DNA of 64,000 bases. Source: Escherichia phage EK5. The notes under the pieces were generated by a model, which was given only the letters and a program-made list of their open reading frames with translations, ran no database searches and was not told the DNA's origin. This document shows, in pieces, positions 1-46,872 of this stretch. Positions within the stretch are counted from its first letter, which is position 1. Each line of letters opens with the position of its first letter. The DNA lies in sequence record PQ805429.1, one strand, 5' to 3'. A program made the position numbers and the translations under genes.

Positions 1-51
1 TGCTAATCACAATGGATTGTTAGAAGCTCTGAAAGAGCGTGGAATAGAATA

Positions 52-13909: not shown

Positions 13910-14944
13910 TTATTGTATACTCCTGAATATCTTTCTAGCATCTAATACTGGAATACTCAACCCGAGGGCACCACCCCCTCCTAAATCATATTGACTACTC
14001 CAAGAGTAAATCATCCTTCCGAAACCTGTACCGAAAGAAGAGCCATTCATCATGTGAGATCTTGTGTGTTGAAAATACCAACCACTAGCCTTGCCCCTTA
14101 TTGCTCCTGCTCCGTAAGATAGTGGTATCATTGGATAGGCCAGAGATGTGTTACCGCCACTCATAGGCATAAATCCCTCAACACTAAAAGGGGTTCTATA
14201 TGTAGAAAATACACACTGAGACCCATTTGGAGAGAAGATATTTAAACCCCCATTGTGGGTTGGTACTCCAGAACCATCACAGAAGACGGCAATTCTAACA
14301 CCACCAATGTATCCTGTTTGGTTTGTGTTACCATTATCATGAGATCTGTTCTGGTACACATAAACAACCCTATTGGATGGATTGTATAGCAGCCCTGCTC
14401 CACCGTTACTCCAATTCGCGTAGACAGTTGCTCGGCTCATATCAAAACCACCAATATCTGGTATTTGAAGAGAACCATTTATGTCACCCTCCCAAGCCCA
14501 AATACATTGACCAACAACCCCAGAATCGGATATTGAGAAATAGTCAGCAGAGTTGGAGAATGTGATTCCATAATTCCTGTTAGCTCTAGGCCATATTTGA
14601 TACACATTAAAAGCCATATCAAATACCCAACCGTTTACATTATAGTCCATAGTAACTCTGAAGGTTGAGTTATTAATAACAGATATATCCGTTATCCAAT
14701 ACACATCAGACGTTACGTTAGGAGGTATGTATCTCTCCCAAACAACAGACCCTGTTGGAACTACAACTATCTGACCACTACCATCCCAACCACTTATAGG
14801 CAAGTCACAGGTATTTCCACTAAAAGAGAAATTCCCACTGACTCTATTTCTGAGTTGAGGGAATGTGCTACCACTATCGATGTAAATATCAGCAGGTGCC
14901 GCTGGACCCGGACCAACCGGGCGTGTCCATATTCCATATGCCAT
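13910..14944 (-). CDS. Tail fibre / receptor-binding-like protein
   Basis: Beta-rich G/S/N/W-rich sequence; position in tail module. Confidence 0.4.
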   Translation of the reverse strand: MAYGIWTRPVGPGPAAPADIYIDSGSTFPQLRNRVSGNFSFSGNTCDLPISGWDGSGQIVVVPTGSVVWERYIPPNVTSDVYWITDISVINNSTFRVTMDYNVNGWVFDMAFNVYQIWPRANRNYGITFSNSADYFSISDSGVVGQCIWAWEGDINGSLQIPDIGGFDMSRATVYANWSNGGAGLLYNPSNRVVYVYQNRSHDNGNTNQTGYIGGVRIAVFCDGSGVPTHNGGLNIFSPNGSQCVFSTYRTPFSVEGFMPMSGGNTSLAYPMIPLSYGAGAIRGKASGWYFQHTRSHMMNGSSFGTGFGRMIYSWSSQYDLGGGGALGLSIPVLDARKIFRSIQ

Positions 14945-14945
14945 G

Positions 14946-15980
14946 TTACCAACTCCCTATTCTTATGCGAAGAGTTCCACTCCCATCATAAAAATCTATT
15001 CTATTACCATTCATCCACAACTGAGAACCACCTGTACCACCCATAACAAAATCACCACCAACAGTAAGTCTCCAGTTAGAACCCCACATAGAACCAGCAG
15101 TGATTTTATCCGCTGATAAGTTCTGAATCTGAGCATTGGAGATAGATACGTTATCAATCTGTGCCCATTGGATCCTAGCGTTGGCAATCTGAGCAGTTGT
15201 GATGTTGACGTTCTTTATGTCAGCGAATTCCATCCTAGCTCGCCCACCCTCAAATACGAAGGGGGTATTCCCAGAGCTGCCATCACCAACAATAAATTTG
15301 TTAGCTGTTACTTGGAATTGACTGTTTGTTCCGTTGTTAGTTAACTTGACCCCAGCATATCTTCCGTTGACTGTAGAGTTAACACCCCACGTAGCTTCAT
15401 ACTCAGAGAGTTTCATATACTGAGAAAGGCTTCCGTTGATATTTTGCAGTTCTGTCTGAACAAGAGCAATCTCTTGACCTTGATCGTTAACAATACCTTC
15501 TACTGTCTGAATTTTAGTTGTGTTACCTTCGATGCTGGTCTTAAAACCAGATACAGTGCTTTCTAGCTTCACAGGGGGTTGAACAGAATTATCCCAAATG
15601 TCCTCAGTGGACAGGTTCCCCATCTGGGTTTGGATATCTGCAATAGCTGTTTCTATCTCTGTAGTAATTCTATTCTCAAGCTCATCAAATTGTAGATTCA
15701 TTGCATTAAGAGCTTTAATACGAACATCAATCTCTTCGTGAATTTCATCTATAGCTTGGAACATTTGGTTAGTAGCTGTGCTAACTTTTTGTAATTCATC
15801 ATACACGGCTACGTTATATGTTTCTGTGTCCTGTACATTATTGAGAAACCCAACGTTGTACGGGAGTGTGGTGTTGTTGCGACCAGTATTCTTACGAAAA
15901 CCACCTGCACCCATAAGTTCCTCCAAAACAATAAAAGGGGCACGAAGCCCCTTGTTGTTATCTCCGCCCGCCAACAGCAA
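14946..15980 (-). CDS. Tail fibre-like protein with repetitive C-terminal region
   Basis: Central coiled-coil region and C-terminal repeat-like NVNITTAQIANARIQWAQIDNVSISNAQIQNLSADKITAG. Confidence 0.45.
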   Translation of the reverse strand: MLLAGGDNNKGLRAPFIVLEELMGAGGFRKNTGRNNTTLPYNVGFLNNVQDTETYNVAVYDELQKVSTATNQMFQAIDEIHEEIDVRIKALNAMNLQFDELENRITTEIETAIADIQTQMGNLSTEDIWDNSVQPPVKLESTVSGFKTSIEGNTTKIQTVEGIVNDQGQEIALVQTELQNINGSLSQYMKLSEYEATWGVNSTVNGRYAGVKLTNNGTNSQFQVTANKFIVGDGSSGNTPFVFEGGRARMEFADIKNVNITTAQIANARIQWAQIDNVSISNAQIQNLSADKITAGSMWGSNWRLTVGGDFVMGGTGGSQLWMNGNRIDFYDGSGTLRIRIGSW

Positions 15981-35891: not shown

Positions 35892-35919
35892 TTGACAGCC
35901 TTTTCCTTTATTATATAGT
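35892..35919 (+). promoter_or_regulatory. Sigma70-type early promoter
   Basis: TTGACA, 16-nt spacer, TATAGT; about 45 nt upstream of the first rightward gene at 35964. Confidence 0.55.
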
Positions 35920-38748: not shown

Positions 38749-38777
38749 TTGACAGCGAAAACAACATGATTCATAAT
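38749..38777 (+). promoter_or_regulatory. Strong sigma70-type promoter with A-rich upstream element
   Basis: TTGACA, 17-nt spacer, CATAAT, preceded by AAAAAGATTAAAAAG; no ORF with SD within about 900 nt downstream. Confidence 0.55.
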
Positions 38778-40600: not shown

Positions 40601-40623
40601 GTAAGACAATTTAAATAAACATA

Positions 40624-40658
40624 AGGCGCTATCTTAACGGGTAGCGCCTTTTCTTTTA
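40624..40658 (+). terminator. Rho-independent terminator
   Basis: AGGCGCTA ... TAGCGCCT stem followed by TTTCTTTTAT. Confidence 0.6.
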
Positions 40659-41870: not shown

Positions 41871-42087
41871 TAGGAATATAGCCCCCTCTTTTAGTACTAT
41901 GACGCTCTTTCTGTAGCGTCGTGCCCTCTCCCCATTTGAAGCTTCCGCATAGCCGCCTTTGAGCGGCTTTTTGCGTTGCTGTAAGTGCATTTGCGAGTGT
42001 ATTTATAGCAACGGTCATGTGTTGCTTTCAGGTTTGCCCCGGCTACGGCTGGGGCTTTTTTATGTCTACTGTATAGGAATCTATGAA

Positions 42088-45154: not shown

Positions 45155-45159
45155 AGAGA

Positions 45160-45188
45160 GGCTGCCTTCGGGCGGCCTTTGTTGTTTT
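45160..45188 (+). terminator. Rho-independent terminator
   Basis: GGCTGCC-TTCG-GGCGGCC hairpin followed by TTTGTTGTTTT. Confidence 0.6.
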
Positions 45189-45664: not shown

Positions 45665-45826
45665 ATGTTCAAGTGGCTAAAGCGTGTCTTTCATTGTCAT
45701 GATTGGAAGATTATTAATACTCGCCCTCTGGTCTATACAGATTCGGATGGGAACAATGACAAGGGCACACGTTACGTTATTCAGTGTAAGGTGTGTGGTG
45801 ATGTTAGTCATCGTGATGTAATCTAA
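45665..45826 (+). CDS. Small-protein family B, copy 1
   Basis: MFKWLKRVFHCHDWK ... CKVCGD; SD GAGG. Confidence 0.5.
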   Translation: MFKWLKRVFHCHDWKIINTRPLVYTDSDGNNDKGTRYVIQCKVCGDVSHRDVI

Positions 45827-46227: not shown

Positions 46228-46303
46228 GCACCCTTAGCTCAATGGACAGAGCAGCGACCTTCTAAGTCGTTGGTTACAGGTTCGAGTCCTGTAGGGTGCA
46301 CCA
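46228..46303 (+). tRNA. tRNA-Arg (anticodon UCU, reads AGA), CCA encoded
   Basis: Hand-folded cloverleaf: acceptor GCACCCT/AGGGTGC, D-stem GCTC/GAGC, anticodon stem GCGAC/GTCGT with loop CTTCTAA, T-arm ACAGG-TTCGAGT-CCTGT, discriminator A then CCA. Confidence 0.9.
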
Positions 46304-46322
46304 ATCAACGTAGGAGGTAGTT

Positions 46323-46622
46323 ATGAGTTGGGGTGGTGTAATATCCTTAATCTGTATCTTCCTTGTCTGTGTGGCCCTTACAGGCTGCGTACAGAGCCGT
46401 CCTGATGGATGGTGTGCAGTAGCAGTGGATGGTATTTGTGTATCTCGCTGGCATAAAGGTGAGAAGGTTCCTTCTGGTGAGATTGATATGCGCTGGAACG
46501 GAGCAACCTGCTCTAATGCTAACCCTTCTATCAACGAAGAGAAGTCTACGCCAGACAGTGTTGTGATTGATACAGCGTTGTGGTGTGGTGGCTCTACAGT
46601 TACCACTGGTAAGGAGTGGTAA
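46323..46622 (+). CDS. Cys-rich lipoprotein
   Basis: Strong SD GGAGG; signal peptide with lipobox LTGC. Confidence 0.6.
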   Translation: MSWGGVISLICIFLVCVALTGCVQSRPDGWCAVAVDGICVSRWHKGEKVPSGEIDMRWNGATCSNANPSINEEKSTPDSVVIDTALWCGGSTVTTGKEW

Positions 46623-46623
46623 C

Positions 46624-46872
46624 ATGACAGCTCATTATTGGAATACAAAGAAGCTCCTTGAAGAGATGGCTGGAGTTAGTAGAGTACAGCTAATCTCTAT
46701 GCTTCGAATGGATGCTCGCTCCTTACGCTTCCAAGTAAAGATTGGTAACTTCAGTGATGGCCTTTATTACACGCTGAAGGAAAGGATTAAGAAGACACAC
46801 TTCATTATATATGGACTCAAACCGAGAACATATGTTAACTACATGTATTGGGATACATGCTACGATAATTGA
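46624..46872 (+). CDS. Hypothetical protein
   Basis: ATG 46624 with SD AAGGAG, internal to the listed 46567 ORF. Confidence 0.4.
   Translation: MTAHYWNTKKLLEEMAGVSRVQLISMLRMDARSLRFQVKIGNFSDGLYYTLKERIKKTHFIIYGLKPRTYVNYMYWDTCYDN

What the first reader, a model, noticed from the sequence alone, without database searches (positions are those of the whole stretch)
46323..46622. Early Cys-rich lipoprotein, candidate receptor-blocking factor
Seen in sequence: very strong SD, signal peptide with lipobox LTGC, about 75-aa mature domain with six Cys. Established: lytic coliphages such as T5 encode small lipoproteins that block their own receptor. Inference only for this gene.
Basis: inference. Interest (0 to 1): 0.45.

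Follow-up and report, generated by a model that had tools for sequence, protein, structure and literature searches.

The report
Phage lipoprotein that likely blocks LptD
This small early gene of a phiEco32/SU10-like coliphage encodes an outer-membrane lipoprotein homologous to Rtp45, a phage protein shown by cryo-EM to plug the essential LPS-export channel LptDE from the periplasm and stop further phage attachment. The same genome also carries a relative of the matching LptD-binding tail protein, so the still unknown terminal receptor of these podoviruses may be LptD.

Summary
The ORF is real: 46323..46622 (+), 99 aa, AGGAGG Shine-Dalgarno, signal peptide with lipobox LTG|C22. One detail is off. 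The mature part is 78 aa with five Cys (four besides the lipidated one), not six.

The window is a Kuravirus (phiEco32/SU10-like podovirus). The gene equals phi32_106, 'putative phage lipoprotein', in the sigma70-driven early cluster.

It is a clear member of Pfam PF24052 (117 bits, cut-off 27). Its only solved relative is Rtp45 (PDB 9RPS chain D; sequence E 9e-14; predicted fold TM 0.77). Rtp45 is the superinfection-exclusion lipoprotein that binds the periplasmic face of LptDE and pushes a hairpin up the LptD lumen. The Rtp45 disulfide (Cys30-Cys38) is conserved here as Cys31-Cys39, and the C-terminal K-E-W is also kept. SU10-like podoviruses add a Cys-bracketed, hypervariable loop at the hairpin tip.

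It is not a Llp or Cor homologue and not a spanin.

Unexpectedly, the late module encodes an Rtp44/Oekolampad-type LptD-binding protein (13910..14944, DUF6453) directly after a tail needle that carries a J-tip domain. Best reading: an early LptDE blocker, probably cognate to a needle-tip receptor-binding protein. Whether Kuraviruses use LptD is untested, and the SU10 homologue of that protein was not detected in virions.

The parts
46323..46622 (+). CDS of the 99-aa prolipoprotein (stop codon included); homologue of phiEco32 phi32_106, LAMP gp106 and Rtp45
46312..46317 (+). Shine-Dalgarno AGGAGG, 5 nt upstream of the ATG
   Evidence: read directly
46323..46388 (+). Signal peptide, residues 1-22. 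Lipobox LTGC occupies 46377-46388; Cys22 is the predicted acylated first residue of the mature protein.
   Evidence: G21 and C22 are conserved across the family. Rtp45 is processed as a lipoprotein.
46398..46502 (+). Conserved core RPDGWC31..G..C39..W..G..VP.GE.D.R..G60. It holds the disulfide pair equivalent to Rtp45 Cys30-Cys38 and the first strands of the hairpin. About 57% identical to Rtp45 over this stretch.
46509..46586 (+). Cys63..Cys88 bracketed loop. This insertion is specific to SU10-like podoviruses, hypervariable in length (8-33 residues between the Cys) and in sequence, and is predicted to sit at the tip of the long beta-hairpin.
46590..46619 (+). Conserved C-terminal strand G90-S-T-V-T-T-G-K-E-W99. 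The G and the terminal (K/R)-E-W are family-wide.
46228..46303 (+). tRNA-Arg(UCU) ending 19 nt before the ATG. The tRNA-lipoprotein linkage is kept in phiEco32, Bas91, ECBP2 and the reduced-genome phage LAMP.
13910..14944 (-). Putative cognate partner: 344-aa DUF6453 protein (SU10 gp19, phi32_21). It is a homologue of Rtp44 and of the Oekolampad RBP that binds LptD.
   Evidence: PF20051, 87.6 bits; 9RPT_C, E 2.3e-9; AF2 pLDDT 84; Foldseek 9rpt_C E 2e-12, TM 0.81
14946..15980 (-). Tail needle (SU10 gp18; the true start is probably Met23, at 15914). It carries the Phage_Tail_Tip domain found at the C-terminus of J-like central tail fibres, to which Rtp44-type RBPs are thought to attach.
35892..35919 (+). 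Sigma70-like promoter (TTGACA-16-TATAGT) at the head of the + strand early cluster that contains the lipoprotein gene. A second one lies at 38749-38777.
   Evidence: position matches the early promoters described for phiEco32

Best explanation
**Proposed mechanism**
- The gene is transcribed with the early, host-RNAP-dependent cluster.
- There, like its homologue Rtp45, it docks on the periplasmic face of the LptD-LptE(-LptM) LPS translocon.
- It is held together by the Cys31-Cys39 disulfide.
- It inserts a long beta-hairpin (residues about 52-65 and 86-98) up the LptD lumen. Here the hairpin tip carries an extra disulfide-stapled loop (Cys63-Cys88).
- This displaces extracellular loops of LptD, so phage proteins that recognise LptD from outside can no longer bind.
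- The infected cell and its debris then stop adsorbing LptD-dependent phages.

The phage also encodes, directly after its tail-needle gene, a homologue of the LptD-binding RBP. The excluded phage is therefore probably the Kuravirus itself, with LptD as its terminal receptor after O-antigen binding by the long fibres. LptD-dependent siphoviruses would be excluded as a side effect.

**Shown here**
- Gene and lipobox anatomy.
- Family membership.
- Sequence and fold similarity to Rtp45.
- Co-occurrence with the RBP homologue.

**Shown by others, for Rtp45 only**
- Binding to LptDE and displacement of loop EL4.

**Inferred**
- LptDE binding by this protein.
- The exclusion phenotype.
- Use of LptD by Kuraviruses.
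For: **Homology to Rtp45**
- PF24052, E 2.7e-34.
- The PDB sequence search returns 9RPS chain D (Rtp45) as the only coherent hit: E 9.2e-14, residues 6-66.
- The AF2 model (pLDDT 80.7) matches only 9rps_D in Foldseek: probability 1.00, TM 0.77 on the target, next hit E 3.
- Family invariants include the Rtp45 disulfide pair and the terminal E-W.

**Mechanism of Rtp45**
- From the PNAS 2025 paper PMC12685063.

**Association with the LptD-type RBP**
- The family is tied to LptD-type RBP loci. The lipoprotein is adjacent to DUF6453 genes in Rtp, ACG-M12, Bas83 and Sfin-5.
- It is unlinked but co-present in Webervirus FZ10.
- FhuA-dependent T1 has neither gene.
- The window encodes a DUF6453 protein after a needle with a J-tip domain.
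- Both genes co-occur on two further diverged SU10-like contigs, of 74 kb and 100 kb.
- Both genes are present in phiEco32 and in the reduced-genome phage LAMP.
- Both Kuravirus proteins are closest to the Webervirus and Rtp versions.

**Selection and precedent**
- Purifying selection on the core.
- A podovirus using O-antigen and then LptD has a precedent in Pseudomonas phage DEV.
- The receptors of SU10 are stated to be unidentified.
Against: - No experiment exists on this protein or any Kuravirus allele.
- The exclusion phenotype of Rtp45 itself is deduced from structure. I found no plating data in the papers read.
- SU10 gp19, the DUF6453 homologue, is listed as not detected in virions and is absent from a shotgun proteome that did detect the needle.
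- Kuraviruses are described as strictly O-antigen dependent, with the LPS core suggested as terminal receptor.
- The lipoprotein is 31 kb from the RBP homologue, not adjacent as in E. coli siphoviruses.
- The 26-residue insertion could change the target.
- The signal peptide lacks a basic n-region.
Confidence: 0.6

Rival explanations
1. Inter-phage weapon only. The lipoprotein blocks LptD, but the Kuravirus itself does not use LptD. Its role would be to keep LptD-dependent siphoviruses (Dhillonvirus, Drexlerviridae), which share the same hosts, out of the infected cell. The gp19 DUF6453 protein would then have another role, for example in needle assembly.
For: - SU10 gp19 was not detected in virions in two proteomic data sets.
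- Kuraviruses are reported as O-antigen dependent, with the LPS core proposed as terminal receptor.
- The lipoprotein is unlinked from gp19, and the allele types of the two genes are reshuffled among Kuraviruses.
- LptD-targeting Dhillonviruses were isolated on the same O16-positive K-12 host.
Against: - A conserved RBP-family gene sits directly after a needle with a J-tip domain in every SU10-like genome examined.
- The lipoprotein and DUF6453 genes co-occur in all ten genomes or contigs checked, and both are absent from T1.
- A single-copy tip protein can escape gel-band MS and symmetrised cryo-EM. This was argued for Kuravirus in PMC12309495 and shown for DEV.
Confidence: 0.2
2. Same fold, different target. 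The podovirus-specific Cys-bracketed insertion has retargeted the lipoprotein to another outer-membrane protein or to a different function at the envelope.
For: - The insertion of 8-33 residues is absent from all siphovirus members and is hypervariable.
- The AF2 prediction for the insertion has low confidence (pLDDT 52-72).
Against: - The parts of Rtp45 described as contacting LptD (residues 30-35 and the hairpin) lie in the best-conserved stretch, about 57% identical.
- The partner RBP family in the same genome is the LptD-specific one.
- The C-terminal strand is conserved to the last residue.
Confidence: 0.1
3. Host-takeover factor. By plugging the LptD lumen early, the protein stops LPS and O-antigen export, weakening or freezing the outer membrane. 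Phage exclusion would be incidental.
For: - The Rtp45 hairpin occupies the LptD lumen.
- The gene sits among early host-takeover genes.
- The phage depends on O-antigen, which is exported through LptDE.
Against: - Existing surface LPS would remain during a short lytic cycle.
- The papers read on Rtp45 mention neither toxicity nor an LPS-transport block.
- The association with an RBP gene across phages points to receptor masking.
Confidence: 0.07
4. Lysis component: the lipoprotein is the outer-membrane spanin subunit (Rz1-like).
For: - It is a small OM lipoprotein with Cys residues.
- It is the only lipobox ORF found inside the 64-kb window.
Against: - It is not next to the holin and lysin genes and has no i-spanin partner.
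- It lies in the early cluster.
- Its homologues occur in T1-like phages, a group whose type phage T1 has a dedicated u-spanin.
- Kuravirus LAMP has an Rz-like gp39 with an overlapping frame that carries a classical lipobox (MRKLNQFFIMSALVMTTSAC). The 3' end of that gene is at window 2..49.
Confidence: 0.01

Closest known systems
Rtp45 of phage Rtp (PDB 9RPS chain D; Pfam PF24052), and SE_Oeko (bas18_0026) of phage Oekolampad
   Same: - Same family: 117 bits against PF24052.
- Lipobox, conserved disulfide pair, hairpin motif VP.GE.D.R..G and terminal K-E-W.
- The predicted fold matches the solved chain (TM 0.77).
- Co-occurs with a DUF6453 RBP homologue.
   Different: - Host phage is a podovirus, not a siphovirus.
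- The gene sits in the early cluster, 31 kb from the RBP homologue, rather than beside it downstream of gpJ.
- A 26-residue Cys63-Cys88 loop is inserted at the hairpin tip.
- There is no basic residue in the signal-peptide n-region.
- No binding or structural data exist for this protein.
T5 Llp (FhuA blocker, PDB 8A60) and Cor of T1/phi80/N15
   Same: - Small, early-made outer-membrane lipoproteins that act from the periplasmic side on the phage's own receptor.
   Different: - No detectable homology in the mature part. Cor reaches 17.7 bits, from the signal peptide only.
- The target is FhuA, a TonB-dependent transporter.
- Llp works by long-range allostery, whereas Rtp45 displaces loops physically.
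Pseudomonas phage DEV gp56-gp55-gp54 receptor-binding fibre
   Same: - A podovirus that binds O-antigen first and then LptD.
- It uses a small RBP carried on a J-like fibre at the tail tip.
- That fibre is hard to see in symmetrised cryo-EM.
   Different: - No homology between gp54 and the window's DUF6453 protein turned up in my tblastn organism list.
- The text passages I searched in that paper mention no lipoprotein.
- The host is a different genus.
Webervirus (Klebsiella T1-like) lipoprotein and gp23 pair, e.g. phage FZ10
   Same: - Closest siphovirus versions of both proteins: the lipoprotein has an identical C-terminus, TTGKEW, and the RBP homologue scores E 2.5e-19.
- The lipoprotein is unlinked from the RBP gene and lies in the replication module.
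   Different: - Siphovirus.
- No Cys-bracketed insertion.
- The receptor has not been established.

Membership tests
PF24052 / Rtp45-like superinfection-exclusion lipoproteins | Profile match above the curated threshold | tested here: met
   117.4 bits against a cut-off of 27, full length. Rtp45 itself scores 128 bits.
PF24052 / Rtp45-like superinfection-exclusion lipoproteins | Type II signal peptide with lipobox Cys | tested here: met
   LTG|C22. G21 and C22 are conserved in 74 aligned members. No dedicated predictor was available, and the n-region lacks Lys/Arg.
PF24052 / Rtp45-like superinfection-exclusion lipoproteins | Disulfide pair equivalent to Rtp45 Cys30-Cys38, plus the conserved hairpin and C-terminal (K/R)-E-W | tested here: met
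   C31, C39, G52, D55, G60 and G90 are invariant; E98 and W99 are at least 90% conserved. The alignment to 9RPS_D supports this.
PF24052 / Rtp45-like superinfection-exclusion lipoproteins | Fold like the solved Rtp45 chain | tested here: met
   Foldseek against PDB: 9rps_D is the only hit, probability 1.00, E 2e-3, TM 0.77 normalised to the target. This compares a predicted model with a bound-state structure.
PF24052 / Rtp45-like superinfection-exclusion lipoproteins | Encoded next to a DUF6453 (Rtp44-type) RBP gene downstream of gpJ | tested here: not met
   The DUF6453 gene is at 13910..14944 (-), 31 kb away in the late module. The two genes do co-occur in the genome. An unlinked arrangement is also seen in Webervirus FZ10.
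PF24052 / Rtp45-like superinfection-exclusion lipoproteins | Binds the periplasmic face of LptDE and prevents RBP binding or phage adsorption | not testable with these tools
   Known only for Rtp45, by cryo-EM. No complex prediction tool was available.
T5 Llp / Cor (FhuA-blocking lipoproteins) | Sequence homology of the mature domain | tested here: not met
   The window protein hits no other Pfam family. Pairwise score against T1 Cor is 20. Cor against PF24052 gives 17.7 bits, below threshold. T5 Llp itself was not compared directly.
o-spanin (Rz1-like) | Lipoprotein gene embedded in, or adjacent to, an i-spanin gene of the lysis module, and expressed late | tested here: not met
   The gene is in the early cluster, has no Rz-like neighbour, and is far from the holin and lysin genes. 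A separate Rz/Rz1-type pair exists in Kuravirus LAMP, and its 3' end lies at window 2..49.

The most novel reading that the evidence does not exclude
SU10/phiEco32-like prolate podoviruses use the essential LPS translocon LptD as their so far unidentified terminal receptor. Recognition would be by a low-copy DUF6453 protein (SU10 gp19) capping the J-tip-like tail needle, which could be the trigger for needle release and nozzle formation.

They protect infected cells with an early, genomically uncoupled Rtp45-type lipoprotein. Its lumen-penetrating hairpin has gained a disulfide-stapled, hypervariable tip. That tip may reach the extracellular side of LptD and may be evolving in an arms race with competing LptD-binding phages.
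Probability: 0.4. Interest if true: 0.75.

Novelty: new member of a known kind. Interest (0 to 1): 0.58.

Why it matters
The terminal receptor of Kuraviruses is explicitly described as unknown. These phages are abundant, have a broad host range and are candidates for therapy.

A receptor-masking lipoprotein acts as a genetic fingerprint of the receptor. Its homology to the LptDE-binding Rtp45, together with an LptD-type RBP homologue next to the tail needle, turns the question into a simple plasmid-expression and lptD-mutant plating experiment.

LptD is essential and conserved, so a podovirus family that depends on it would be attractive for therapy and for understanding how the SU10 needle triggers tail rearrangement.

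The finding also shows that exclusion genes can be uncoupled from RBP genes. Searches limited to the gpJ locus would therefore miss them.

Tried and rejected
**Rejected readings**
- Spanin: rejected.
- Homology to Cor: rejected. The weak Pfam and HMM signal is the signal peptide. T1 Cor and the Sfin-5 PF24052 protein share the identical leader MKKLITIIAAAFILTGC but have unrelated mature parts.
- Antisense ORFs over the gene (46274..46648, 46347..46625): treated as spurious, because the + frame shows dN/dS of about 0.2 and family conservation.

**Spurious database hits**
- PDB hits to designed armadillo-repeat proteins: summed scores of about 4-bit repeats, with zero significant stretches.
- Long proteins in the representative search (586-2576 aa): repeats or low complexity. 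One is a fused gene call of lipoprotein plus DUF6453.

**Searches that came back empty or unavailable**
- A cultured relative of the 100-kb SU10-like contig: none in the phage collection.
- Wietzorrek 2006 (original Rtp paper): not held.
- A published link between Kuravirus, phiEco32 or SU10 and LptD: none in the searchable library. The only hint of a missed needle-tip protein is a remark on 'hand-like' proteins in PMC12309495, which does not mention LptD.

**Uninformative tests**
- Co-variation of lipoprotein and gp19 alleles: the types are reshuffled, so this gives no information on pairing.
- No sigma70-like promoter lies immediately upstream of the gene. The nearest + strand match (45694-45721, 9/12) is weak, and the promoter-like count is below the shuffle expectation.

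Full report
**Observation**

The ORF is at 46323..46622 on the + strand and encodes 99 aa. An AGGAGG Shine-Dalgarno lies at 46312-46317, 5 nt before the ATG. A tRNA-Arg(UCU) ends 19 nt upstream.

The N-terminus, MSWGGVISLICIFLVCVALTG|C, has a long hydrophobic core and the lipobox L-T-G-C22, with Val at +2. I scanned every start codon in all six frames for a leader plus lipobox. This was the only candidate with a strong hydrophobic core and an SD.

The precursor has seven Cys (11, 16, 22, 31, 39, 63, 88). The 78-aa mature protein has five, one of them the lipidated Cys22.

**What the window is**

The DNA around the gene is 90-95% identical to phiEco32/SU10-like podoviruses (Kuravirus, Gordonclarkvirinae). 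The gene corresponds to phi32_106, 'putative phage lipoprotein', and again sits just after the tRNA-Arg. The same arrangement holds in Bas91, ECBP2 and LAMP.

LAMP has a reduced 68.5-kb genome that has lost many neighbouring small early genes, yet it keeps both the tRNA and the lipoprotein.

Two 11/12 sigma70-like promoters, at 35892 and 38749, open the + strand cluster. For phiEco32 and SU10 this cluster is the early class, transcribed by host RNAP. 'Early' is therefore supported by position and homology. I have no expression data for this particular gene.

**Family**

The protein matches Pfam PF24052, 'Phage lipoprotein family', at 117 bits against a cut-off of 27, and the uncharacterised phrog_4281.

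A search of all PDB sequences gives one coherent hit: 9RPS chain D, 'Phage lipoprotein', E 9.2e-14 over residues 6-66. That chain is Rtp45 of siphophage Rtp.

According to PMC12685063:
- Rtp45 is the superinfection-exclusion lipoprotein of an LptD-targeting phage.
- In the cryo-EM complex it sits on the periplasmic side of LptD, between LptE and LptM.
- It has a Cys30-Cys38 disulfide.
- It sends a long, partly beta-stranded hairpin up the LptD lumen.
- It displaces extracellular loop 4 by up to 20 Å, which is incompatible with binding of the phage RBP.

In the window protein the equivalent cysteines are Cys31 and Cys39. The stretch RPDGWC..G.C..W..G..VP.GE.D.R..G is about 57% identical to Rtp45.

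An alignment of 74 members shows C22, G29, C31, C39, G52, D55, G60 and G90 as invariant, and G21, G37, G46, V49, R57, E98 and W99 as at least 90% conserved.

An AlphaFold2 model built on that alignment has pLDDT 80.7. It predicts strands at 31-35, 38-44, 47-50, 52-65 and 86-98. Foldseek against the PDB returns only 9rps_D: probability 1.00, E 2e-3, TM 0.77 on the target. The next hit has E 3.

The family is small and confined to phages. I found about 94 clusters at 90% identity, all on phage-sized contigs. A profile search of 1.84 billion representatives returned 23 proteins at E ≤ 0.001 (14 at E ≤ 1e-10), mostly small family members plus a few long proteins I regard as spurious.

**What is special about the podovirus version**

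All members end in (K/R)-E-W. The Kuravirus proteins are longer because of an insertion between G60 and G90, not because of a C-terminal extension.

The insertion is bracketed by two extra cysteines, Cys63 and Cys88 here. Between alleles it varies from 8 to 33 residues and is saturated with substitutions. The core, by contrast, shows dN/dS of about 0.2.

In the model the insertion sits at the tip of the long hairpin. By homology this is the part that reaches up the LptD lumen.

The four-Cys subtype was found only in phages with SU10-type structural genes. These include divergent 74-kb and 100-kb contigs whose lipoproteins have ordinary basic leaders (MKTL.., MKRLL..). That supports reading the unusual, uncharged Kuravirus leader as a genuine signal peptide.

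**Link to LptD rather than to another receptor**

In E. coli siphoviruses the lipoprotein lies beside a protein of about 320 aa, downstream of the J-like central fibre. This is seen in Rtp (rtp45/rtp44), ACG-M12, Bas83 and Sfin-5. That neighbour is DUF6453 (PF20051; Rtp44 scores 379 bits).

Loci of this type were matched genetically to LptD dependence (PMC8594841). A large screen found that the RBP families at this locus are receptor-specific. The Oekolampad member was solved bound to LptDE.

FhuA-dependent T1 served as a negative control. It has no DUF6453 protein. Its Cor lipoprotein resembles PF24052 only through the leader peptide.

**The unexpected partner**

A local tblastn of Rtp44-type proteins against the window hit the 344-aa ORF at 13910..14944 (-) with E 4e-15. 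Further tests on this ORF gave:
- DUF6453 at 87.6 bits.
- A match to PDB 9RPT chain C, the Oekolampad RBP bound to open LptDE, E 2.3e-9 over nearly its full length.
- An AF2 model (pLDDT 83.8, pTM 0.85) whose single significant structural neighbour is that chain: E 2e-12, TM 0.81.

The ORF lies directly after the tail-needle gene at 14946..15980, which matches SU10 gp18 in PDB 7Z4B.

The needle carries the Phage_Tail_Tip domain that forms the C-terminus of Rtp43 and other J proteins. It aligns with them to the very last residues.

The order short fibre, nozzle, needle, DUF6453, SLT ejection protein is identical in phiEco32, LAMP and the two divergent contigs. Each of those also carries the lipoprotein.

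In Webervirus FZ10 the DUF6453 gene follows J on the same strand. Its lipoprotein, mis-annotated as 'PDDEXK-like', is 10 kb away in the replication module. An unlinked pair is therefore not unique to Kuraviruses.

Both Kuravirus proteins are most similar to the Webervirus versions and then to the Rtp versions.

**Interpretation**

The most economical reading is an early-made LptDE blocker of the Rtp45 type. Because the phage has the matching RBP family at its needle, the blocked receptor is probably its own.

A podovirus that binds O-antigen first and LptD second has a precedent in Pseudomonas phage DEV. There the small RBP on a J-like fibre was also invisible in symmetrised maps.

For SU10 the receptors are stated to be unidentified, and the needle is thought to sense the outer membrane. 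BASEL work suggests O-antigen plus the LPS core, without testing LptD.

I found no paper linking Kuravirus, phiEco32 or SU10 to LptD. One in-silico paper remarks that Kuraviruses may carry an undetected needle-tip protein.

**Caveats**

- SU10 gp19 is listed as not detected in virions, and it is absent from a shotgun proteome that did detect gp18.
- The exclusion phenotype of Rtp45 is inferred from structure.
- The insertion might alter specificity.
- Nothing has been tested for any Kuravirus allele.
- Lipoprotein and gp19 allele types are reshuffled between Kuraviruses. This fits two proteins that each bind a conserved third partner, but it is not evidence for pairing.

**Rejected alternatives**

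The protein is not a spanin:
- It lies in the early cluster.
- It is far from the holin and lysin genes.
- Kuravirus LAMP has an Rz-like gp39 with an overlapping lipobox-bearing frame, and the 3' end of that frame is at window 2..49.

It is not a member of the Llp or Cor families, although it probably works like them.

**Verdict**

The gene is a new, podovirus-type member of a known exclusion-lipoprotein family. The interest lies in what it implies: a testable prediction that LptD is the terminal receptor of Kuraviruses.

Noticed in passing
window 13910..14944 (-) and 14946..15980 (-): A DUF6453 protein homologous to the LptD-binding RBPs Rtp44 and RBP_Oeko lies directly after the tail needle. 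The needle itself ends in the J-protein 'Phage_Tail_Tip' domain. In SU10 this protein (gp19) is called hypothetical and was not detected in virions.
   Followed up: yes
window 46228..46303 (+): tRNA-Arg(UCU) ends 19 nt before the lipoprotein start. The linkage is conserved across Kuravirus, Suseptimavirus and the reduced-genome phage LAMP. In Bas91 a homing endonuclease is inserted just upstream of the tRNA. tRNA processing could give the lipoprotein mRNA a defined short leader; this is speculation.
   Followed up: partly
window 2..49 (+); L021:3263-3758 (-): The window starts inside the 3' end of a gene equal to LAMP gp38, 'putative spanin'. The annotated LAMP start looks too short. The same frame upstream reads MRKLNQFFIMSALVMTTSAC (a classical lipobox) and overlaps the Rz-like gp39. 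Kuraviruses therefore have an overlapping Rz/Rz1-type pair next to the sigma-factor gene, not in the holin-lysin cassette.
   Followed up: partly
L007:29626-29850 (-) and L005:4992-5219 (+): T1 Cor (FhuA blocker) and the PF24052 lipoprotein of Tunavirus Sfin-5 have the identical signal peptide MKKLITIIAAAFILTGC but unrelated mature domains. This looks like a module swap exactly at the lipobox. Likewise, the leader-encoding DNA is identical between this window and phiEco32, while the mature part has dS of about 0.45.
   Followed up: partly
L011:17314-17541 (+) (Klebsiella phage FZ10 gp31); record PQ863256.1: Family members are mis-annotated in public records: 'PDDEXK-like family protein' in Webervirus FZ10 and F20, and 'transcriptional regulator' in phage Ptacy1479.
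   Followed up: no
window 42036..42055, 40623..40650, 45157..45180 (+): Three strong terminator-like hairpins lie inside the early cluster, between the early promoters and the lipoprotein gene. Terminator-like sites are about twice the shuffle expectation in 34.5-50.5 kb. This suggests attenuation or antitermination within the early unit.
   Followed up: no
L008, L009, L010 (uncultured contigs of about 50-100 kb with a SU10-type portal): An uncultured lineage of SU10-like podoviruses, with contigs up to 100 kb, carries TerB/TerC/TerD, NAMPT/PRPP-synthetase and ProQ-like genes in its early region, beside the four-Cys lipoprotein. The phage collection holds no close cultured relative.
   Followed up: partly
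phage records MG065667.1, MG065670.1 (Campylobacter phages A127, A121) and PP134917.1 (Pseudomonas phage PsgS01F): Records labelled as Campylobacter or Pseudomonas phages carry the enterobacterial T1-like lipoprotein and DUF6453 genes. The host labels may be wrong, or the isolates may be contaminants.
   Followed up: no
window 13910..14944 (-), residues 119-140 of the product: The only low-confidence stretch of the gp19 model (pLDDT below 50) is a loop of about 22 residues. It may be a flexible receptor-contact or needle-contact element.
   Followed up: no
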